A stretch of 64,000 nucleotides of DNA from an uncultured Anaerolineales bacterium (lineage in GTDB: Bacteria; Chloroflexota; Anaerolineae; Anaerolineales; UBA11858), in contig CAYORF010000002.1 in NCBI GenBank assembly GCA_964406305.1, forward strand, positions 130-64,129. Direction: 5' to 3'. This document shows positions 1 through 55,830 of this stretch, one piece after another. The position numbers and the translations under genes are program-made. Numbering within the stretch: the stretch's first letter is position 1; each line of letters begins with the position of its first letter. The notes under the pieces were generated by a model. The model saw nothing but the letters and a program-made list of their open reading frames with translations. It did not search any database and was not told where the DNA came from.

Positions 1-38
1 TTAAAGATCAGAGACAATTTGATTCGAATCCATGACTG

Positions 39-103
39 TGGACGGTATTGGACTCGAACCAATGACCTTTGTGATGTCAACGCAACGCTCTAACCAGCTG
101 AGA
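39..103 (-). pseudogene. tRNA-Val(GAC)-like 3' fragment. D-arm, anticodon arm, variable loop, T-arm and 3' acceptor strand are present; the 5' acceptor strand is missing.
   Basis: The reverse complement reads tCTC-AGCTGGTTA-GAGC-g-TTGCG-TTGACAT-CACAA-AGGTC-ATTGG-TTCGAGT-CCAAT-ACCGTCC-A. No GGACGGT partner for the 3' acceptor strand lies upstream. The anticodon stem has one C-A mismatch. Confidence 0.55.
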
Positions 104-141
104 TGTCTCAAATACTATAATCAGCATGTTCAATAAATTTT

Positions 142-158
142 AAATAAATATTCCTACT
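142..158. repeat. 17-bp direct repeat AAATAAATATTCCTACT; left copy of the target-site duplication of IS copy 1
   Basis: The identical 17-mer recurs at 1556..1572, immediately outside the other IS end. Confidence 0.8.
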
Positions 159-1555
159 GTTAGGCAAAGATGAAAACTGGACACCTATAAAGTTCAAAAG
201 TGGACACTGAATCCCTGCAAAGGAAGGGAGGCAGAATGTACCATTTTACTGTTCCACCAGATACGGATATCCATGAGCTGCTTTGTTTCATTAGGCACGA
301 GATGGACACCTACATATTTAAGCAAAGGGACATTAGGAACCTCAATGATATGTTTGAATAGAGAAATCCGACGGTAACTATTGACCCGGCGTTTTTCTCT
401 AAGACAGAATACATCTTTCGGCGAAGTATAGGGCGGTGGTAAGGTTAGTTTGCGGAAGAGGCTGTTTCCGGATTTCTTAGCTTTTTCAAAACGAATCTGA
501 GGAATTTCACCAGTGGTTGAATGCACTTGGTGATTGTTGTAACGGTCAAGCTCAGCTTTCAAGACACTGCGGACTTCATTTAGCTTGGATAGTTTTTCAT
601 AAACACAAGTGCGGACGATGCGGTCCTGCAGCCAGCGATAAGGTCTTTCAACTTTTCCTTTTGCCTGTGGGGAAAGAGCATAGCTGACATCCACACCCAG
701 AATGCGCATCATCTTGCGCCACTGAGTATCGACATCATCGGTCTCCAGCACATGTTTACGCCAGACACTGTCTCTGCCTTGAACGAAACGAAACACACGT
801 AGGGAATCAACATAGTACCGCAAGGGAAGACCGTAGCGCTGGCTCAAGGCCTGGATCGCCTGAATATGGGCCCAGGTGGTCTCCCTGGGAACGAAATCAG
901 CATACAGTAGCTTGCGGCTGAAGTCATCAATCGAAGTGATCAGAGTCCACTTCTCCTTCGCGAGAGGGGACCACTTATGTGTGGAAGCATCATGCTGGAT
1001 TAGCGCACCGATGGATGCTGTTAACACTTCCCGATCATGAGTTTTTCTCTTTTTTCGGGGTTTGTGGCAGTCAAGGTTTTTAGCCCGATTTATGATGGTC
1101 GTCACAGACACCTGAATACCTTTCTCTTTCAATCGATCTTTCATCGCTGAGTAGTTAAACCCCGAGATTGGCAGGTCAGGATCTTCAACAACGGCTTTCT
1201 CTTGAAGTAAAGCTTTCTCGATCTCTTTTTCTGCTCCTGGTGAGATCCTGGCGTGCGTTTTTCGTTGATAGGCAATTGTAAAATGATTTGGATTGCTTCG
1301 ATATTCTTTCAACAAGTCGAAGAAGCGTGACTTGCCAATCCCTATCATTTCTTGAAGATCAGCTCTGCCAACCCGTCCTTGACAATAACTCTGGAATAGA
1401 AGTTTGATTTGTTCATCTGTGAAACGTTTGTGGAGCTGTGACATGGGTTCCTCCAGTTTGTATTGGAGGAGAAATCGTATATTATCCCTTAGTTCCTGTC
1501 AAAACCAGGTGTCCACTTTCAAGCGTAAACTGTCCACTTTTGAAGTTTAAATAAC
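159..1555 (-). mobile_element. Complete insertion sequence (about 1.4 kb) with one rve/DDE transposase gene
   Basis: The ends are GTTA...TAAC. The terminal inverted repeats are imperfect and about 25 bp long. Each end also carries a second subterminal AAAGTGGACAC motif. The element is flanked by a 17-bp direct repeat. Confidence 0.85.
194..1444 (-). CDS. DDE transposase, retroviral-integrase (rve) type, with an N-terminal HTH
   Basis: 416-aa ORF. Candidate catalytic residues lie in IQHDAS, YYVDSLRVF and PQAKGKVERPYRWLQDR (the K-x-E-R signature of rve enzymes). Two paralogs lie at 34826..36076 and 36207..37457. Confidence 0.85.
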   Translation of the reverse strand: MSQLHKRFTDEQIKLLFQSYCQGRVGRADLQEMIGIGKSRFFDLLKEYRSNPNHFTIAYQRKTHARISPGAEKEIEKALLQEKAVVEDPDLPISGFNYSAMKDRLKEKGIQVSVTTIINRAKNLDCHKPRKKRKTHDREVLTASIGALIQHDASTHKWSPLAKEKWTLITSIDDFSRKLLYADFVPRETTWAHIQAIQALSQRYGLPLRYYVDSLRVFRFVQGRDSVWRKHVLETDDVDTQWRKMMRILGVDVSYALSPQAKGKVERPYRWLQDRIVRTCVYEKLSKLNEVRSVLKAELDRYNNHQVHSTTGEIPQIRFEKAKKSGNSLFRKLTLPPPYTSPKDVFCLREKRRVNSYRRISLFKHIIEVPNVPLLKYVGVHLVPNETKQLMDIRIWWNSKMVHSASLPLQGFSVHF

Positions 1556-1572
1556 AAATAAATATTCCTACT
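1556..1572. repeat. 17-bp direct repeat AAATAAATATTCCTACT; right copy of the target-site duplication
   Basis: Identical to 142..158. Its last T is the first T of the TTGACA -35 hexamer. Confidence 0.8.
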
Positions 1573-1600
1573 TGACAGATGTTGATTAAGTCCATATAAT
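1572..1600 (+). promoter_or_regulatory. Sigma-70 consensus promoter of the ilv-leu operon
   Basis: TTGACA (1572-1577), a 17-nt spacer, then TATAAT (1595-1600). Confidence 0.6.
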
Positions 1601-1650: not shown

Positions 1651-1773
1651 ATGATCAATACTGTATTGTCCTTCATCCTTATTCTAATTAGCCTTTTGGT
1701 TCTTATCCTGATTTTGGGGATTGCGAACCCCGTATCCGGTTGGGCATTTAGGAAGGTGAAGAACAAGAAGTAA
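1651..1773 (+). CDS. ilv-leu leader peptide (40 codons, Ile/Leu/Val rich)
   Basis: Encodes MINTVLSFILILISLLVLILILGIANPVSGWAFRKVKNKK. There are 7 Ile, 8 Leu and 4 Val; 16 of the 20 codons at residues 5-24 are I/L/V. A terminator follows. The ORF is below the size cutoff of the ORF track. Confidence 0.7.
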   Translation: MINTVLSFILILISLLVLILILGIANPVSGWAFRKVKNKK

Positions 1774-31044: not shown

Positions 31045-31320
31045 TTTCTCCTTAAACAAAAACCACGTCCAAAAGGGACGCGGCTCTTTTCGCGCGGTTC
31101 CACCCAACTTCAATGACGATCACTCGTCAGGCACTCTTTTAAGGATAACGGGTTGCCCCGGAGCCCCATACTCTCATTAACAATGATTTAGGGAACCCAC
31201 TCATGGATGGTTTTCACCTTTGCCTTCACTATAAGGGTTTTCAGCCGGTGACCCTCATTCTCTGGAGTTATCTCAAAGGATACTCGTTCCACTCAACGCT
31301 TTTTCATATTGTGATATTAG
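31045..31320 (-). promoter_or_regulatory. T-box riboswitch leader; probable Thr (ACC) specifier
   Basis: On the minus-strand RNA, Stem I is formed by GGAAC/GTTCC and CCUUUG/CAAAGG, with an AGUA element, an AGAGA box and the specifier-loop string UGAAAACCA. The T-box motif is UUGGGUGGAACCGCG (complement of 31091-31107). The terminator is CCGCGUCC-CUUUU-GGACGUGG followed by UUUUUGUUU. Confidence 0.8.
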
Positions 31321-31491: not shown

Positions 31492-31520
31492 TTGACATCC
31501 CCGATTTATCGAAGTAAAAT
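31492..31520 (+). promoter_or_regulatory. Sigma-70-like promoter of metA-metY
   Basis: TTGACA (31492-31497), a 17-nt spacer, then TAAAAT (31515-31520). It is followed by CCTGCCTAAT, as at the ilv promoter. Confidence 0.55.
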
Positions 31521-31526
31521 CCTGCC

Positions 31527-31669
31527 TAATGAATTTCATATCTAGATCACCTGAAACCAGAAATCACCTCGCGATCACACTGCCTATGGGGATGCCCAAG
31601 GCTCTCAATCGAGAGCCAATTTGGATTGGGTCTGGTTAATCGTTAAGATATATTATTTTAATTTAATTA
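31527..31669 (+). promoter_or_regulatory. Unclassified metA leader containing a possible leaderless 36-codon ORF (31529..31639)
   Basis: An ATG lies 8 nt after the -10 hexamer. There are three ATCAC(C/A) repeats (31546, 31563, 31574) and a hairpin GGCTCTC-AATC-GAGAGCC. I recognised no S-box or T-box motifs. Confidence 0.4.
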
Positions 31670-34380: not shown

Positions 34381-34661
34381 GAGATTGGCAGGTCAGGATC
34401 TTCAACAACGGCTTTCTCTTGAAGTAAAGCTTTCTCGATCTCTTTTTCTGCTCCTGGTGAGATCCTGGCGTGCGTTTTTCGTTGATAGGCAATTGTAAAA
34501 TGATTTGGATTGCTTCGATATTCTTTCAACAAGTCGAAGAAGCGTGACTTGCCAATCCCTATCATTTCTTGAAGATCAGCTCTGCCAACCCGTCCTTGAC
34601 AATAACTCTGGAATAGAAGTTTGATTTGTTCATCTGTGAAACGTTTGTGGAGCTGTGACAT
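34381..34661 (-). pseudogene. Transposase gene fragment (first 94 codons)
   Basis: The N-terminal 94 aa of track ORF 34284..34661 are identical to the 194..1444 transposase. The remaining 31 aa come from unrelated DNA. Confidence 0.85.
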
Positions 34662-34772
34662 GGGTTCCTCCAGTTTGTATTGGAGGAGAAATCGTATATT
34701 ATCCCTTAGTTCCTGTCAAAACCAGGTGTCCACTTTCAAGCGTAAACTGTCCACTTTTGAAGTTTAAATAAC
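34381..34772 (-). mobile_element. Truncated IS remnant (transposase-proximal 392 bp only)
   Basis: Read by eye, it is base-for-base identical to 1164..1555 of IS copy 1. Identity stops abruptly at 34381. Confidence 0.85.
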
Positions 34773-34773
34773 A

Positions 34774-34790
34774 AGTCCTAAAAGAGTGGT
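34774..34790. repeat. 17-bp repeat AGTCCTAAAAGAGTGGT, copy 1 of 3
   Basis: Lies between the truncated IS end (..AAATAACA) and the start of the next IS (GTTAGG..). Confidence 0.85.
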
Positions 34791-36154
34791 GTTAGGGAAA
34801 CTTGAAAAGTGAACACTTATAAACTTCAAAAGTGAACCCTAAAACCCATCAATGGCAGCAATACAGCGTGCACCATTTTTTCACTCCACCATATTCGAAT
34901 ATGCATCACCCGCTTAGCTGTGTCCGGAACCATGTGAACATCGACATATTCTCGTAGAGGCACTTTGGGTACTTCAATCTCATGATTGAATAGAGAAATT
35001 CTGCGGTATCCATTGATCATCCTTTGAGTGCGCAAGCAGAACACATCTAATGGCGAAGTGTAGGGCTTAGGAAGCGAGAACTTCCGGAAAAGACTGTTCC
35101 CAGATTTCAGAGCTCGTTCAAAACGAATGCTTGGGATTTCACGGGTAGTCGAATGGACCTGATGGTTGTTATAACGGTCGATCTCATCTCTCAAGACACC
35201 CCTACAATCCTCAAACTCAGATATCTCTTCATAAATACAAGTTCTCACCATGCGGTCCTGCAGCCAGCGGTAAGGTCTCTCGACCTTGCCTTTTGCTTGA
35301 GGGGAAAGAGCGTAGGAGACATCCACGTTTATCAGCCGCATCATCTTGCCCCACTGAGTATCCACGTCATCGGTTTCGAGAACATGTCTTCGCCAAAAGC
35401 TATCCCTTCCCTGAACGAAACGAAATACCCGCAAGGAGTCCACATAGTAACGCAAGGGCAATCCATAGGTCATGATCAAGGCCTGGGTAGACTGGATGTG
35501 AGTCCAGGTGGTCTCCGCAGGGAAAAAGTCAGCGAAAAGGATCTTACGACTGTAGTCATCGATGGAGGTAATCAAGGTCCACTTCTTTTTGGACAGGGGA
35601 GACCACATATGAAGGGAGGCGTCATGCTGTACCAATGCACCAATGGAAGCGGTCAATACCTCACGGTCATGAACCTTTCTTTTCCTGCGAGGTTTGTGGC
35701 AGTCCAGTTTCTTGGCCCGGTCAATGATGGTGGTGATGGACACTTCGATCCCTTCCTTATAAAGTCGATCTCTTAGTGCTGTGTAGTTATATCCAGAGAT
35801 CGGCAAATCTGGGTTTTCTATAATCTCTTTCTCCCGTAGTAATGCCTTCTCAACCTCGGATTCCACTTCAGCAGACAATTTGGCAGGAGATTTCCTCTGA
35901 TAAGCGATGGAGAAAGTCTCTGGCCCTTGCCGATAGGTTTTCAGCAAGGCGAAAAACCGTGTTTTACCGATACCCAGAATCTCCTGAATATCGGCTCTTC
36001 TTATCTTGCCCTGGCTATACCTTTGCAGTAATACCTTGATCTGTTCAATAGTGAAGCTCTTATGTAGCTGACCCATTGATTTCTCCTTTTTTCAAGGATA
36101 AATCTATCAGGGTTTGGTAGTAGTGTAGGTGTTCACTTTTCAACTTTATATAAC
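34791..36154 (-). mobile_element. Complete IS; the most diverged member of the same family
   Basis: The ends are GTTAGGGAAAC...TTTATATAAC. Subterminal AAAGTGAAC(A/C) motifs are present. The same 17-mer flanks both sides. Confidence 0.85.
34826..36076 (-). CDS. DDE transposase (rve type), paralog
   Basis: 416 aa, colinear with the other two transposases. The HDAS, YYVDSLRVF and GKVERPYRWLQDR blocks are conserved. Confidence 0.85.
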   Translation of the reverse strand: MGQLHKSFTIEQIKVLLQRYSQGKIRRADIQEILGIGKTRFFALLKTYRQGPETFSIAYQRKSPAKLSAEVESEVEKALLREKEIIENPDLPISGYNYTALRDRLYKEGIEVSITTIIDRAKKLDCHKPRRKRKVHDREVLTASIGALVQHDASLHMWSPLSKKKWTLITSIDDYSRKILFADFFPAETTWTHIQSTQALIMTYGLPLRYYVDSLRVFRFVQGRDSFWRRHVLETDDVDTQWGKMMRLINVDVSYALSPQAKGKVERPYRWLQDRMVRTCIYEEISEFEDCRGVLRDEIDRYNNHQVHSTTREIPSIRFERALKSGNSLFRKFSLPKPYTSPLDVFCLRTQRMINGYRRISLFNHEIEVPKVPLREYVDVHMVPDTAKRVMHIRIWWSEKMVHAVLLPLMGFRVHF

Positions 36155-36171
36155 AGTCCTAAAAGAGTGGT
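36155..36171. repeat. 17-bp repeat AGTCCTAAAAGAGTGGT, copy 2 of 3
   Basis: Lies between the two complete IS elements. Confidence 0.85.
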
Positions 36172-37570
36172 GTTAGCAAAAGATGAAAAGTGGACACCTA
36201 TAAAGTTCAAAAGTGGACACTGAATCCCTGCAAAGGCAGGGAGACAGAATGAACCATCTTCTTGTTCCACCAGATGCGGATGTCCATAAGATCCTTCACT
36301 TCATCAGGCACCAGATGGATGTCAACAAGTTTCTGTAGAGGAACATTAGGGACTTCAATAACGTGTTTGAATAGAGAAATCCGACGGTATCTATTTACCC
36401 GGCGTTGCTCTCTAATACAAAAAACATCTTTCGGCGAAGTATAGGGCGGAGGTAGAGTTAGCTTGCGGAAGAGGCTGTTTCCCGATATCCTGGCTTTTTC
36501 AAACCGGACCTGGGGAATTTCACCGGTGGTTGAATGCACCTGGTGGTTGTTGTAACGGTCAAGTTCAGCTTTCAAAACACTGCGGACCTCATCTTTTTGG
36601 GATAGTTTTTCGTAAACGCATGTGCGGACGATACGATCCTGCAGCCAGCGATAGGGTCTCTCAACTTTGCCTTTTGCCTGCGGGGAAAGAGCATAACTGA
36701 CATCGACACCCAGCAGGCGCATCATCTTTCCCCATTGAGTATCAACATCGTCAGTTTCAAGCACATGTTTGCGCCAAACACTATCTCTACCCTGAACAAA
36801 ACGGAATACACGTAAAGAATCAACATAGTACCGCAAAGGAATCCCATATTGCTGGCACAGGGCCTGGGCCGCCCGAATATGGGCCCAGGTAGTCTCCCTG
36901 GAAACGAAGTCGGCATACAGGAGCTTGCGGCTGAAATCATCAATCGAAGTGATCAGGGTCCATTTCTCCTCCGCAAAGGGGGACCACTTATGTGTGGAAG
37001 CATCATGTTGGATTAGCGCACCTATGGATGAAGTTAGCACTTCCCGGTCATGAGCTTTTCTCTTTTTTCGCGGTTTATGACAATCAAGCTTTTTTGCCCG
37101 ATTGATGATGGTTGGTACAGAGACTTCGATACCGTTCTCTTTCAAGCGATCCTTCATCGCTGAGTAGTTGTATCCCGAGATTGGCAGGTCAGGATCTTCA
37201 ACAACGGCTTTCTCCTGAAGTAACGCTTTTTCTATCTCTGCTTCTGCTCCAGGTGAGATCCTGGCGTGTGTTTTCCGTTGATAGGCAATCGTGAAATGAT
37301 CTGGATCGTTTCGATATTCTTTCAGTAAAACGAAGAAGTGCGACTTGCCAATACCTATCATTTCTTGGAGATCAGTTCTGCTCATTTGTCCCTGGCGGTA
37401 ACTCTTGAATAAAAGCTTGATTTGTTCATCGGTGAAACGTTTGTGGAGCTGTGACATGGGTTCCTCCAGTTTCTATTGGAGGAGAAATCGTATATTATCC
37501 CTTCAAGCTTGTCAAAATCAGGTGTCCAGTTTTCAGGTTTAAACTGTCCACTTTTGAATTTTAAATAACA
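36172..37570 (-). mobile_element. Complete IS; close relative of IS copy 1
   Basis: The ends are GTTAGCAAAAG...TTTTAAATAACA, with the same subterminal TGGACA motifs as copy 1. Confidence 0.85.
36207..37457 (-). CDS. DDE transposase (rve type), paralog
   Basis: 416 aa. It is collinear with the 194..1444 protein and differs by scattered substitutions. Confidence 0.85.
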   Translation of the reverse strand: MSQLHKRFTDEQIKLLFKSYRQGQMSRTDLQEMIGIGKSHFFVLLKEYRNDPDHFTIAYQRKTHARISPGAEAEIEKALLQEKAVVEDPDLPISGYNYSAMKDRLKENGIEVSVPTIINRAKKLDCHKPRKKRKAHDREVLTSSIGALIQHDASTHKWSPFAEEKWTLITSIDDFSRKLLYADFVSRETTWAHIRAAQALCQQYGIPLRYYVDSLRVFRFVQGRDSVWRKHVLETDDVDTQWGKMMRLLGVDVSYALSPQAKGKVERPYRWLQDRIVRTCVYEKLSQKDEVRSVLKAELDRYNNHQVHSTTGEIPQVRFEKARISGNSLFRKLTLPPPYTSPKDVFCIREQRRVNRYRRISLFKHVIEVPNVPLQKLVDIHLVPDEVKDLMDIRIWWNKKMVHSVSLPLQGFSVHF

Positions 37571-37587
37571 AGTCCTAAAAGAGTGGT
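37571..37587. repeat. 17-bp repeat AGTCCTAAAAGAGTGGT, copy 3 of 3
   Basis: Its last T is the first T of TTGACA (37587-37592). Confidence 0.85.
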
Positions 37588-37615
37588 TGACAATTTTTAT
37601 TCTTTATGTTAACCT
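37587..37615 (+). promoter_or_regulatory. Candidate promoter of the arg/lys operon
   Basis: TTGACA, a 17-nt spacer, then TAACCT (a weak -10). Confidence 0.4.
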
Positions 37616-37657: not shown

Positions 37658-37747
37658 ATGGACTATCAAGTAAAAATTCACACCAATAATAAACCTCGTC
37701 GAAAGACCCTCCCTCCTTTACCTCTCATCCGGGTAGGTGTTTTTTAG
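37658..37747 (+). CDS. Possible leader peptide (29 codons) with a KPRRK core
   Basis: Encodes [29 protein letters not shown]. There is no SD. It lies between the candidate promoter and a strong terminator. Confidence 0.35.
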
Positions 37748-37767
37748 GCGTACGACAAAACGTTTTT

Positions 37768-37808
37768 AAAAAGCCAGTCTCCATCCGGAGACTGGCTTTT
37801 TTTTTATT
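37768..37808 (+). terminator. Strong intrinsic terminator upstream of argG
   Basis: Perfect 10-bp stem GCCAGTCTCC / loop ATCC / stem GGAGACTGGC, flanked by A5 and T9. Confidence 0.8.
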
Positions 37809-55398: not shown

Positions 55399-55427
55399 TT
55401 GACAGTTCCATTTCAATACGGTATAAA
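55399..55427 (+). promoter_or_regulatory. Sigma-70-like promoter of the trp operon
   Basis: TTGACA, a 17-nt spacer, then TATAAA. Confidence 0.55.
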
Positions 55428-55433
55428 GGTTAT

Positions 55434-55830
55434 CAACAGGTTATTAAAAATAAATCAACTGTGAAGAGGGAATAGTAAGCGGCGAAACGCTGGTTCAGAG
55501 AGCAAGGGGTTGGTGAAAACCTTGCCCAGACGCCACCGCTGAATGGACCTCAGAGTTGCAGGGCGAACAGGTTCCTAGAAGAAAATGACCAAAATAGCCC
55601 GAGCCGGGGTTGCTACCGTTACCAAAGCATTGGTTCCGTTGCGTGATAACTTTATTTCCGGTTGGAAATAAAAGAACCTATCATACTTCCGGATCAAGAA
55701 TAAGTGAGGCTGGTTTCTACATTTCCCGTTGTTTCACCAACGGGATCTTGTTGTTAACATCAAAGACAGCCTACACAGGGTGGCACCGCGGGAATCGCCT
55801 CTCGTCCCTGAGACTTGAGGCGATTTTAAT
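55434..55830 (+). promoter_or_regulatory. T-box riboswitch leader, Trp (UGG) specifier
   Basis: It has an AGAGA box (55496-55500) and a GGUGAAAA distal loop. The specifier string is GAA-UGG-A, with UGG at 55544-55546. The T-box motif is GGGUGGCACCGCGG (55778-55791). The terminator is AATCGCCTC...GAGGCGATT followed by TTAATTT (55793-55830). Confidence 0.85.

What the first reader, a model, noticed from the sequence alone, without database searches (positions are those of the whole stretch)
34381..37592. Head-to-tail array of three related IS elements, each separated by the same 17-bp sequence and ending at a -35 hexamer
The order is: truncated IS, AGTCCTAAAAGAGTGGT, IS (diverged), AGTCCTAAAAGAGTGGT, IS (close to copy 1), AGTCCTAAAAGAGTGGT, TGACA. 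All transposase genes point the same way. Three different family members have apparently each inserted into, and regenerated, the same 17-bp target. This is the signature of site- or structure-specific targeting rather than random transposition. As at the ilv locus, the last repeat supplies the first T of a TTGACA. The 17-mers themselves differ between the two loci, so the common determinant may be the adjacent TTGACA or a promoter-associated DNA structure. With only two loci, this is only a suggestion.
Basis: partly seen in the sequence, partly recalled or inferred. Interest (0 to 1): 0.65.

Follow-up and report, generated by a model that had tools for sequence, protein, structure and literature searches.

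The report
Insertion sequences that home to promoters
Three related jumping genes sit nose-to-tail because each landed at exactly the same spot, the upstream edge of a gene's promoter. The same precise promoter-homing shows up for this whole branch of insertion sequences across many bacterial phyla, and I found no published report of it.

Summary
AGTCCTAAAAGAGTGGT occurs three times (34774, 36155, 37571). It separates a truncated IS (E1), a roughly 70%-identical IS (E2) and an 86–88%-identical IS (E3), all with the transposase on the minus strand. They are IS1202-family elements of the long-duplication (ISTde1-like) kind. Their ends read TGT…ACA, so the true target duplication is 15–16 bp, and the whole TTGACA is the native -35 of the arg operon promoter. 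IS-free orthologous arg promoters have TTGACA-17-TAnnnT, and one metagenomic allele carries only E1.

In 50 independent insertions from Chloroflexota genomes, 37 have exact TTGACA and 8 have one mismatch abutting the duplication on the transposase-proximal side. None of 37 distal flanks do. A -10 follows 16–18 bp downstream.

Retyping a published supplementary table of curated IS1202-family insertions gives the same pattern for the ISTde1 (15–18 bp) and IS1202 (24–29 bp) subgroups. The -10 stays in register even where the -35 is poor. Two dedicated papers state that no target is known for these groups.

Because insertion leaves the promoter intact, repeated hits regenerate the same spacer and build arrays. 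Recognition through promoter-bound RNA polymerase is inferred, not shown.

The parts
34381..34773 (-). E1: truncated IS. It keeps the IRL end, the transposase promoter and the first 93 codons. It is the oldest member of the array.
   Evidence: 393/393 identical to window 1164-1556 of the ilv copy and 87.6% identical to E3. It is present alone next to the promoter in allele L206.
34774..34789 (.). Spacer 1: AGTCCTAAAAGAGTGG, a 16-bp copy of the target duplication
34790..36155 (-). E2: complete IS with TGTTAGGG...TATAACA ends. Transposase gene 34826-36076, 416 aa. Diverged family member.
   Evidence: About 70% nucleotide identity to E3 and the ilv copy. Protein 71% identical to the E3 transposase. 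NCBIfam ISNCY_2 hit, E=6e-43.
36156..36170 (.). Spacer 2: GTCCTAAAAGAGTGG. It is 15 bp, or 16 if A36155 is counted as target rather than as the E2 tip.
36171..37570 (-). E3: complete 1400-bp IS with TGTTAGCA...AATAACA ends. Transposase gene 36207-37457. Its own promoter is TTGACA-17-TACGAT, starting at 37515 on the minus strand. It is nearest the host promoter and is inferred to be the newest.
37571..37586 (.). Spacer 3: AGTCCTAAAAGAGTGG, the target-duplication copy that abuts the -35
37587..37592 (+). -35 hexamer TTGACA of the arg/lys operon promoter. This is the native positional determinant.
   Evidence: Conserved as TTGACA in the IS-free orthologous loci L217, L218 and L220.
37610..37615 (+). 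-10 hexamer TAACCT, 17 bp after the -35
   Evidence: The orthologues have TAGGCT, TAAGCT and TAAGAT at the same spacing.
37658..37806 (+). Leader peptide ORF ([29 protein letters not shown], 37658-37747) and intrinsic terminator (37772-37806) ahead of argG. This context shows the target is a working regulated promoter.
   Evidence: Sequence read. A comparable leader ORF and a closely similar terminator stem are present in L217, L218 and L220.
143..157 (.). Left (IRR-side) copy of the 15-bp duplication AATAAATATTCCTAC at the ilv locus
158..1556 (-). ilv copy: complete IS of the same species as E1. Transposase gene 194-1444.
1557..1577 (+). Right (IRL-side) copy of the duplication (1557-1571), abutting the TTGACA -35 (1572-1577) of the ilv operon promoter. 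TATAAT lies at 1595-1600.

Best explanation
E1, E2, E3 and the ilv copy are members of the IS1202 family, of the long-duplication (ISTde1-like) kind. They are about 1.4 kb long and encode one 416-aa DDE transposase. They have TGT...ACA tips and repeated subterminal AAAAGTG(G/A)AC motifs, and they make 15-16-bp target duplications.

These elements do not insert at random. The staggered cut next to the transposase-proximal end (IRL) falls exactly at the upstream edge of the -35 hexamer of a sigma-70-type promoter. The second cut falls 15-16 bp further upstream. The element always points away from the promoter.

The core promoter survives intact, so it remains a target. Each new arrival cuts the same phosphodiesters, duplicates the same 15-16 bp and pushes earlier arrivals upstream. 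This gives a head-to-tail array with identical spacers in which the newest element lies nearest the promoter. At the arg promoter the order was E1 first, then E2 and E3. E1 lost its distal part by deletion.

Shown here:
- family membership;
- the duplication length;
- the base-pair-precise association with -35/-10 promoters in many genomes;
- the native status of TTGACA;
- the existence of an E1-only allele.

Inferred: I put this at about 0.65-0.7. The order E2 before E3 is also inferred.
For: Family:
- NCBIfam transpos_ISNCY_2, E=1.6e-42.
- 26-28% identity over 87-94% of the protein to plasmid ISNCY transposases, including the ISKpn65 record MK552108.
- D152, D173-D174, D213, E266 and Q273 (E+7) are invariant in alignment A1. 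This matches the IS1202-family signature described.

Targeting in genomes:
- In 24 loci with clean ends, perfect or one-mismatch 14-16-bp duplications of unrelated sequence abut TGTCAA on the IRL side.
- Over 50 independent IRL flanks from species-representative genomes, 37 are exact and 8 have one mismatch. The distance to the tip is 15 (26 times) or 16 (15 times). The count is 0 of 37 for IRR flanks, p about 1e-101.
- The logo shows no conservation inside the duplication, then TTGACA, and a TAnAnT at +23 to +28.
- A metagenome scan with an IR pattern gave 15 exact and 3 one-mismatch among 25 validated IRL ends. It also found a roughly 260-bp MITE with the same behaviour.
- Six targets are tRNA-gene promoters.

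Native promoter: IS-free orthologous arg loci have TTGACA-17-TAnnnT followed by a leader and a terminator.

Serial insertion: allele L206 has E1 only. E1, E2 and E3 differ by 12-30% while the spacers are identical.

Generality and promoter-level recognition, from re-analysis of Supplementary Table 1 of doi 10.1101/2022.12.17.520857:
- ISTde1 sheet: 25 of 36 rows have TTG abutting the repeat, and 23 of 36 also have TAnnnT at a 16-18 bp spacer, p about 7e-48.
- IS1202 sheet: 30 of 32 rows have a -10 in register, including where the -35 is TAGAAA, TTTCTA, AGGATT or TGTTTA.
Against: - No experiment has been done. Everything rests on surviving insertions in genomes and MAGs, so selection against intragenic insertions contributes to the picture.
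- In the Chloroflexota set, the -10 enrichment over other intergenic TTGACA sites is modest: 30/45 against 19/44, p=0.03.
- There are exceptions without a hexamer: L014, L061, L033 at 1546 (inside another transposase gene), L111, L185 and L186. Curated rows such as ISVbsp4, ISGba2 and ISCade1 also lack it.
- Two or three sites may lie inside ORFs: L003 and L029.
- Three curated rows have the promoter on the side labelled IRR.
- The AlphaFold model of the catalytic core was poor, so nothing structural supports an RNAP contact.
- Short-read contigs around these repeats include probable chimeras: L212 and L235.
Confidence: 0.9

Rival explanations
1. The transposase itself reads the DNA sequence TTGACA, for example with one of its N-terminal helix-turn-helix domains or because TGTCAA resembles an IS tip (TGTYA). 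RNA polymerase plays no part. The -10 and the downstream genes appear only because intragenic insertions are purged and most intergenic TTGACA sites are promoters.
For: - The hexamer match in the Chloroflexota family is stricter than a typical -35: 37 of 50 exact.
- 43% of other intergenic TTGACA sites in the same DNA also have a -10, so survivorship explains much of the 67%.
- A few insertions look intragenic: L003 and L029.
- In the curated ISTde1 group, the IRR tip is itself TGTCAA.
- The IR inner motif CTTGAAAAGTG is one mismatch from CTTGACAA.
Against: - In the curated tables the -10 stays exactly 16-18 bp from the hexamer that abuts the repeat even when that hexamer is TTGCGC, TTGCCG, TTGATT, TAGAAA, TTTCTA or AGGATT. 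A protein that reads only the hexamer would not pick these.
- Mismatches cluster at hexamer positions 5-6, and TTG is the most conserved part. That is the -35 conservation profile, the opposite of IS tips, where TGT is conserved.
- Pfam finds no sigma-like domain.
Confidence: 0.2
2. The array arose by tandem duplication, unequal crossing-over or integration of a tandem or circular junction form. On this view the 17-mer is part of the element (a junction spacer) rather than duplicated target.
For: Circular forms with the flanking repeat between abutted ends have been reported for ISKpn21 in this family. The L235 contig shows that recombination or mis-assembly between copies does occur.
Against: - The three elements are 70-88% identical to each other while the spacers are 100% identical.
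- The spacer sequence differs at every other locus and flanks both ends as a duplication.
- An allele with E1 alone exists.
- The same 16-mer is followed by native promoter DNA.
Confidence: 0.02
3. Insertion is essentially random or only regionally biased (AT-rich or destabilised upstream DNA, as for IS5). Selection then keeps only copies just upstream of promoters, because they are harmless or because the element's end benefits expression.
For: Upstream promoter regions are AT-rich and tolerated. The A/T-rich IRL tip replaces the distal UP-element position (inference).
Against: - Selection cannot give single-base precision. The duplication abuts the hexamer in 41 of 45 sites at a distance of 15 or 16, and always in one orientation.
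- Many equally neutral intergenic positions are unused. In the window, 36 other TTGACA sites and all other intergenic DNA carry no copy.
Confidence: 0.03

Closest known systems
ISTde1 subgroup of the IS1202 family (ISTde1, ISCARN53/62/63, ISHahy13, ISPeth5 and others; Siguier et al. 2022 preprint, Harmer et al. 2023)
   Same: About 1.3-1.5 kb long, with one transposase of about 400-450 aa. TGT tips, an inner conserved motif repeated subterminally, direct repeats of 15-18 bp, and the DDE signature with Q at E+7. Members have been reported from Chloroflexi. My re-analysis shows the curated members share the same position next to a -35.
   Different: - The inner IR motif here is AAAAGTG(G/A)AC, against (A/T)AATGTC(C/A) in the curated set.
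- The NCBIfam score (146 bits) is below the family cut-off (250).
- No named close relative was found; the nearest matches are unnamed metagenomic proteins.
- The published descriptions state that no target is known for this subgroup.
ISAba32 / ISAjo2 subgroup of the IS1202 family (dif/pdif 'hunters')
   Same: Same family. The IRL end always faces the determinant, and the duplication directly abuts it. Several identical or different members can pile up at one site. No accessory targeting genes are present.
   Different: The duplication is 5-6 bp and the determinant is the XerC arm of a XerCD site, not a promoter. Identity to the window's transposase is about 27%.
IS1202 subgroup (IS1202, ISSeq2 and others; 24-29-bp repeats)
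   Same: In the curated table, the IRL-side flank ends in TTGACA-like hexamers with a -10 16-18 bp beyond. This includes three IS1202 copies in S. pneumoniae.
   Different: The duplication is about one helical turn longer. The hosts are Firmicutes and Tenericutes, and the transposase carries an extra insertion of about 30 aa.
Tn7 (TnsB) at attTn7
   Same: The transposase is related (per Harmer et al.). It has TGT/ACA ends, several transposase sites per end, and inserts in a fixed orientation at a fixed distance from a protein-bound determinant in a harmless 'safe haven'.
   Different: There are no TnsA/C/D/E genes here. The determinant is generic (any strong promoter) rather than one locus. 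The arrays indicate there is no effective target immunity.
Ty3 (and Ty1, Dictyostelium TRE) retrotransposons targeting RNA polymerase III promoters
   Same: This is a functional analogy. Integration occurs at a fixed position just upstream of transcription units, including tRNA genes. It uses the transcription machinery as the landmark and leaves the gene intact.
   Different: These are eukaryotic retroelements whose integrase is tethered by TFIIIB or Pol III. There is no homology with the system here, and tethering to bacterial RNAP is only inferred.

Membership tests
IS1202 family | Single DDE transposase of 400-500 aa with an N-terminal HTH, related to ISNCY/IS1202 group transposases | tested here: met
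   416 aa. NCBIfam NF033594 transpos_ISNCY_2, E=1.6e-42 and 146 bits, below the 250-bit cut-off. tblastn gives 26-28% identity over 87-94% to annotated ISNCY transposases on plasmids. The AF2 model gives two N-terminal helical bundles and a C-terminal beta barrel.
IS1202 family | [quoted passage not shown] | tested here: met
   D152, D173, D174, D213, E266 and Q273 are invariant in the 28-sequence alignment A1. The signature is as described.
IS1202 family | Imperfect terminal inverted repeats of about 24-26 bp starting 5'-TGT, with a further transposase-site motif near each end | tested here: met
   IRL is TGTYATTTRAAMTTSAAAAGTGRAC and IRR is TGTTAGSAAAAGTTGAAAAGTGRAC. A second or third AAAAGTGRAC copy lies just inside each end.
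ISTde1 subgroup | Target duplication of 15-17 bp | tested here: met
   14-16 bp, mostly 15 or 16, in 24 loci with both flanks.
ISTde1 subgroup | Subgroup-specific 5-10-aa insertion between the second D and E; clustering with ISTde1 in a transposase tree | not tested
ISAba32/ISAjo2 subgroup (dif hunters) | 5-6-bp duplication, with IRL 5 bp from the XerC arm of a dif-like site | tested here: not met
   The duplications are 15-16 bp. The conserved flank is TTGACA followed by a -10, not a XerC/D site.
Promoter-targeting element (proposed behaviour) | Insertion point fixed relative to the -35 and -10 of a sigma-70-type promoter, independent of the duplicated sequence | tested here: met
   45 of 50 sites are within one mismatch of TTGACA at a distance of 15-16. 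The -10 is visible in the logo. The curated tables give 23/36 and 30/32. Native promoters are seen in IS-free orthologues.
Promoter-targeting element (proposed behaviour) | Recognition mediated by RNA polymerase holoenzyme bound at the promoter | not testable with these tools
   Indirect only. The -10 stays in register where the -35 is poor, and tRNA promoters are among the targets.

The most novel reading that the evidence does not exclude
The two long-duplication branches of the IS1202 family (ISTde1-like with 15-18 bp, IS1202-like with 24-29 bp) may use promoter-bound RNA polymerase holoenzyme as their target selector. They would integrate at the upstream edge of the -35 with the second cut one and a half or two and a half helical turns further up. 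That would make them a bacterial counterpart of Ty3-type promoter-tethered integration. The 5/16/27-bp series of duplications would reflect one-turn steps along one face of the target DNA next to a bound host protein: XerC for one subgroup, RNAP for the others.
Probability: 0.55. Interest if true: 0.92.

Novelty: new variant of a known kind. Interest (0 to 1): 0.85.

Why it matters
Two dedicated studies of the IS1202 family found a target (XerCD/dif sites) for the short-duplication subgroup only. Both stated that no target could be found for the long-duplication subgroups. The evidence here indicates that those subgroups home, with base-pair precision and fixed orientation, to the upstream edge of promoters, in Chloroflexota and across many other phyla.

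If confirmed, this would matter in several ways:
- It would be a case of a bacterial transposable element using promoters, probably through the transcription machinery, as its landing mark. I found no earlier report of this.
- It explains a harmless 'safe-haven' strategy.
- It explains the head-to-tail arrays and the abundance of this family in environmental genomes.
- It gives a ready-made marker of active promoters in uncultivated bacteria.
- It suggests a compact one-protein system for placing DNA next to promoters.
- It makes the mechanism behind the unusual 16- and 27-bp duplications experimentally approachable.

Tried and rejected
- Pfam on the full transposases and on the N-terminal 142 aa gave only sub-threshold HTH-type hits and no sigma-like domain.
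- A profile search against PDB sequences found nothing useful.
- AlphaFold2 with a 28-sequence, low-diversity alignment gave pLDDT 55, with the catalytic core unmodelled. No fold search was run.
- I looked for an empty ilv site through ilvD-encoding contigs, but all of them were occupied.
- Exact-protein look-ups of the E3, E2 and ilv transposases gave no new insertion sites, only the same two loci and probable assembly joins.
- I tested whether targets lie inside ORFs. Most do not, and a few are ambiguous. The ORF-distance test is crude and was not used as evidence.
- IR mimicry (CTTGAAAAGTG against CTTGACAA, and the TGTCAA IRR tip) was considered as the recognition principle. I ranked it low because the conservation profile of the target follows the -35 (TTG most conserved, C preferred at position 5) and because -10 elements stay in register.
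- The plasmid collection held only relatives at about 27% identity, so no named close relative could be given.
- Tandem duplication or a circle junction as the origin of the array was rejected, because the elements are diverged, the spacers are identical, and the L206 allele carries E1 alone.
Full report
**1. Observation.**
The 17-mer AGTCCTAAAAGAGTGGT occurs exactly three times in the window, at 34774, 36155 and 37571. With up to three mismatches allowed, 0.15 occurrences are expected by chance. Between and before the copies lie three related elements whose 416-aa ORFs are all on the minus strand.
- E1 (34381-34773) is a fragment.
- E2 (34790-36155) is about 70% identical in DNA to E3.
- E3 (36171-37570) is complete.
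- A fourth copy lies at 158-1556.

E1 is 393/393 identical to the corresponding part of that fourth copy and 87.6% identical to E3. TTGACA follows the last repeat at 37587. At the other locus the flanking repeat is a different sequence (AATAAATATTCCTAC), and it too is followed by TTGACA, then 17 bp, then TATAAT. The description is therefore correct.

**2. What the elements are.**
The transposases hit NCBIfam transpos_ISNCY_2 (E about 1e-42, below the curated cut-off), then IS481 and IS21 more weakly. tblastn against plasmids finds annotated ISNCY transposases at 26-28% identity over 87-94% of the length, including the ISKpn65 record.

In an alignment of 28 homologues, D152, D173, D174, D213, E266 and Q273 are invariant. 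This is the IS1202-family signature: two extra aspartates inside the DDE, and Q at E+7.

The ends are symmetric from the very tip. IRL reads TGTYATTT..AAAAGTGRAC and IRR reads TGTTAGS..AAAAGTGRAC, each with a further copy of the inner motif just inside. With TGT...ACA tips, the unit duplicated at each insertion is 15-16 bp. This is the range that defines the ISTde1 subgroup.

The 17-mer is thus a 16-bp duplication plus a T. That T is either the first base of the next element's TGT tip or the first base of TTGACA.

**3. Target choice in unrelated genomes.**
A peptide-pattern scan of one genome per species returned 80 loci, almost all from Chloroflexota MAGs.
- In 24 loci with both flanks, the elements are bounded by perfect or one-mismatch 14-16-bp duplications of unrelated sequence. 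The six bases just outside the duplication on the IRL side are TGTCAA (that is, TTGACA reading away from the element) in 20 loci. Three more have single-mismatch variants and one has two mismatches.
- Over 50 independent IRL flanks, 37 are exact and 8 have one mismatch. The hexamer-to-tip distance is 15 (26 times) or 16 (15 times).
- None of 37 IRR flanks has the hexamer there. The binomial p is about 1e-101.
- The position matrix shows no information inside the duplication, a C/G before the hexamer, an A after it, and TAnAnT at +23 to +28 without any realignment.
- TAnnnT at a spacer of 16-18 occurs in 30 of 45 targets. This compares with 15% of all other TTGACA sites and 43% of those outside long ORFs in the same DNA.
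- A co-directional ORF usually starts within about 150 nt. In six loci the first gene is a tRNA whose 5' end lies about 35-40 nt past the hexamer.
- An independent scan of metagenome contigs with a degenerate IR pattern gave the same result for tblastn-validated IRL ends (15 exact and 3 one-mismatch of 25). True IRR ends showed nothing. A divergent subfamily with ..AAAAGTGCAC repeats and a 260-bp MITE (L088) behave alike.

**4. The hexamer is native and the array is serial.**
Contigs encoding argG proteins 80-87% identical to the window's carry no IS. They have ...T TTGACA-17-TAGGCT, TAAGCT or TAAGAT. A comparable leader ORF and a closely similar terminator stem follow, as in the window. The -35 therefore belongs to a conserved, regulated arg/lys operon promoter.

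One contig from another sample (L206) has metX, metY, the same 366-bp spacer, the same truncated E1, one AGTCCTAAAAGAGTGG, and then TTGACA. E2 and E3 are absent, and the contig differs from the window by scattered SNPs.

E1's insertion and truncation therefore predate the split, and E2 and E3 are later additions between E1 and the hexamer. The spacer lengths (16, 15, 16) fit cuts anchored at the hexamer edge. E3's 16-bp duplication includes the last base of E2's tip. The elements are 12-30% diverged while the spacers are identical. This excludes in-place duplication.

**5. Generality and what is already published.**
Two papers define the IS1202 family. Both show that the 5-bp subgroup inserts 5 bp from XerC/D sites with IRL facing the site, sometimes several elements at one site. 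Both say that no target was found for the long-duplication groups. Neither text contains TTGACA or any mention of promoter targeting. Six further full-text searches found no report of it.

The preprint's Supplementary Table 1 lists left flank, repeat, IRL, IRR, repeat and right flank for curated elements.
- ISTde1 sheet (36 rows with repeats of 15 bp or more; Acidobacteria, Synergistetes, Firmicutes, Proteobacteria, Atribacteria, Verrucomicrobia and others): TTG abuts the repeat in 25 rows. TTG plus TAnnnT at 16-18 occurs in 23, p about 7e-48. Three of the exceptions have the same promoter arrangement on the side labelled IRR.
- IS1202 sheet (repeats of 24-29 bp, including IS1202 itself three times in S. 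pneumoniae): 25 of 32 rows have TTG and 30 of 32 have a -10 in register.

Importantly, the -10 is in register even where the abutting hexamer is a poor -35. Examples are TTGCGC, TTGCCG and TTGATT followed by a perfect TATAAT, and also TAGAAA, TTTCTA, AGGATT and TGTTTA. Several of these targets are tRNA promoters.

**6. Mechanism.**
Shown: the insertion point is fixed to the base pair, and the orientation is fixed, relative to a complete sigma-70-type promoter. The sequence that gets duplicated is irrelevant.

Inferred: the landmark is read through RNA polymerase holoenzyme sitting on the promoter rather than by the transposase reading DNA. I base this on three points.
- (a) The -10, 23 bp from the cut, is retained more consistently than the -35 consensus in the curated sets.
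- (b) Mismatches in the hexamer follow the -35 conservation profile (TTG > ACA).
- (c) Strong promoters (tRNA genes, amino-acid operons with consensus -35) are prominent among the targets.

The sister subgroup's behaviour next to XerC-bound DNA suggests a family habit of integrating beside a DNA-bound host protein, with IRL proximal. The 5-6, 15-18 and 24-29 bp series differs by about one helical turn per step (my inference).

Direct readout of TTGACA plus purifying selection remains possible, at about 0.2. It is favoured by the very strict hexamer in the Chloroflexota family and by the modest excess of -10 elements over other intergenic TTGACA sites. Nothing structural could be learned, because the model was poor.

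Because the core promoter is untouched, it stays a target. This explains arrays here, in L033 and in L190. It also suggests there is no Tn7-like target immunity.

**7. Caveats.**
- All data are surviving insertions, largely from MAGs.
- Exceptions exist (L014, L061, L111, L185, L186, and curated rows ISVbsp4, ISGba2 and ISCade1). A few sites may be intragenic (L003, L029).
- Contigs L212 and L235 show chimeric joins around these repeats.
- Subgroup placement by phylogeny and indel was not tested.
- My literature search covers open-access papers and preprints only.

**8. Verdict.**
The elements belong to a known family. Their target rule, integration at the upstream edge of the -35 of promoters, shared by both long-duplication subgroups, appears not to have been described. 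It is visible in published supplementary data. I rate it a new variant of a known kind, of high interest.

Noticed in passing
Supplementary Table 1 of doi 10.1101/2022.12.17.520857, IS1202 sheet: The IS1202 subgroup proper (24-29-bp repeats, Firmicutes/Tenericutes, including IS1202 in S. pneumoniae) also has its repeat abutting a -35 hexamer. A -10 lies in register in 30 of 32 rows.
   Followed up: partly
Same table, ISVbsp4 rows: The three Vibrio ISVbsp4 insertions lack an adjacent TTG. Two share TTTGGGGCAAAA and the third has AAAGGGGCAC, about 10-12 bp from the repeat. This possibly reflects a different target in this clade with roughly 500-aa transposases.
   Followed up: no
window 1651-1773 and 1801-1827: The ilv operon is preceded by a 40-aa leader peptide with 19 Ile/Leu/Val residues (MINTVLSFILILISLLVLILILGIANPVSGWAFRKVKNKK) and an intrinsic terminator. 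This looks like classical leader-peptide attenuation in an Anaerolineae genome.
   Followed up: no
window 37658-37806; L217, L218, L220: The arg/lys (argG-argH-lysW-lysX...) operon has a short leader peptide containing Arg/Lys codons (..KPRRK..) and a closely similar terminator stem. Both are present in orthologues with 80-87% identical argG.
   Followed up: partly
window 31492-31530 and 1595-1613: The unoccupied metX promoter (TTGACA-17-TAAAAT) and the ilv promoter share the 13-mer AATCCTGCCTAAT, starting inside the -10. This may be a shared regulatory or initial-transcribed element.
   Followed up: no
window 31071-31305 (-) and 55452-55812 (+): Two T-box leaders pass the Rfam gathering score. 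The second lies just downstream of an unoccupied TTGACA-17-TATAAA promoter at 55399.
   Followed up: no
L212 (JGI 3300025628 contig), upstream of ilvD: The contig joins the IS IRL, the arg-locus duplication and TTGACAATTTTTATTCTTT directly to the ilv -10 (CCATATAATCCTGCC). The junction lies in unique sequence, so this is not a simple repeat-mediated mis-assembly. It could be recombination, flank transduction or an artefact.
   Followed up: no
L235 (JGI 3300023298 contig): The contig reads: E2 IRR end, arg duplication, full-length E1/ilv-type IS, ilv duplication, ilv upstream flank. This is either an assembly join through the 393-bp identical segment or a real recombinant between the two loci.
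   Followed up: no
L229 and L207, IRL region of E3: Some population variants of E3 carry an extra 22-bp copy of the subterminal repeat (..CTGAAAACTGGACAGTTTAAG..). The number of presumed transposase-binding sites in IRL is therefore polymorphic.
   Followed up: no
L088 5260-5519: A roughly 260-bp miniature element has this family's IRL and IRR and a 16-bp duplication abutting TGTCAA. Non-autonomous derivatives follow the same target rule.
   Followed up: partly
window 1-115 (- strand): There is a tRNA-like sequence (D-arm AGCTGGTTAGAGC, T-arm GGTTCGAGTCC, anticodon-loop TTGACAT) next to the IRR side of the ilv copy. ARAGORN does not call it, so it may be a degenerate or truncated tRNA-Val-like gene.
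   Followed up: no
window 37515 (-), 34719 (-), 1502 (-): The elements' own transposase promoters are TTGACA-17-TACGAT, about 55 bp inside IRL. They are therefore potential targets themselves, yet no copy is inserted there. They also lie back-to-back with the host promoter, about 70 bp away.
   Followed up: no
L190 (metagenome contig), rc positions 277 and 1713: This is a tandem pair whose internal spacer (GTCTTTATTGTCTAG) differs from the promoter-proximal duplication (GTACAATGTAGTATAT). It suggests flank exchange by recombination between copies.
   Followed up: no
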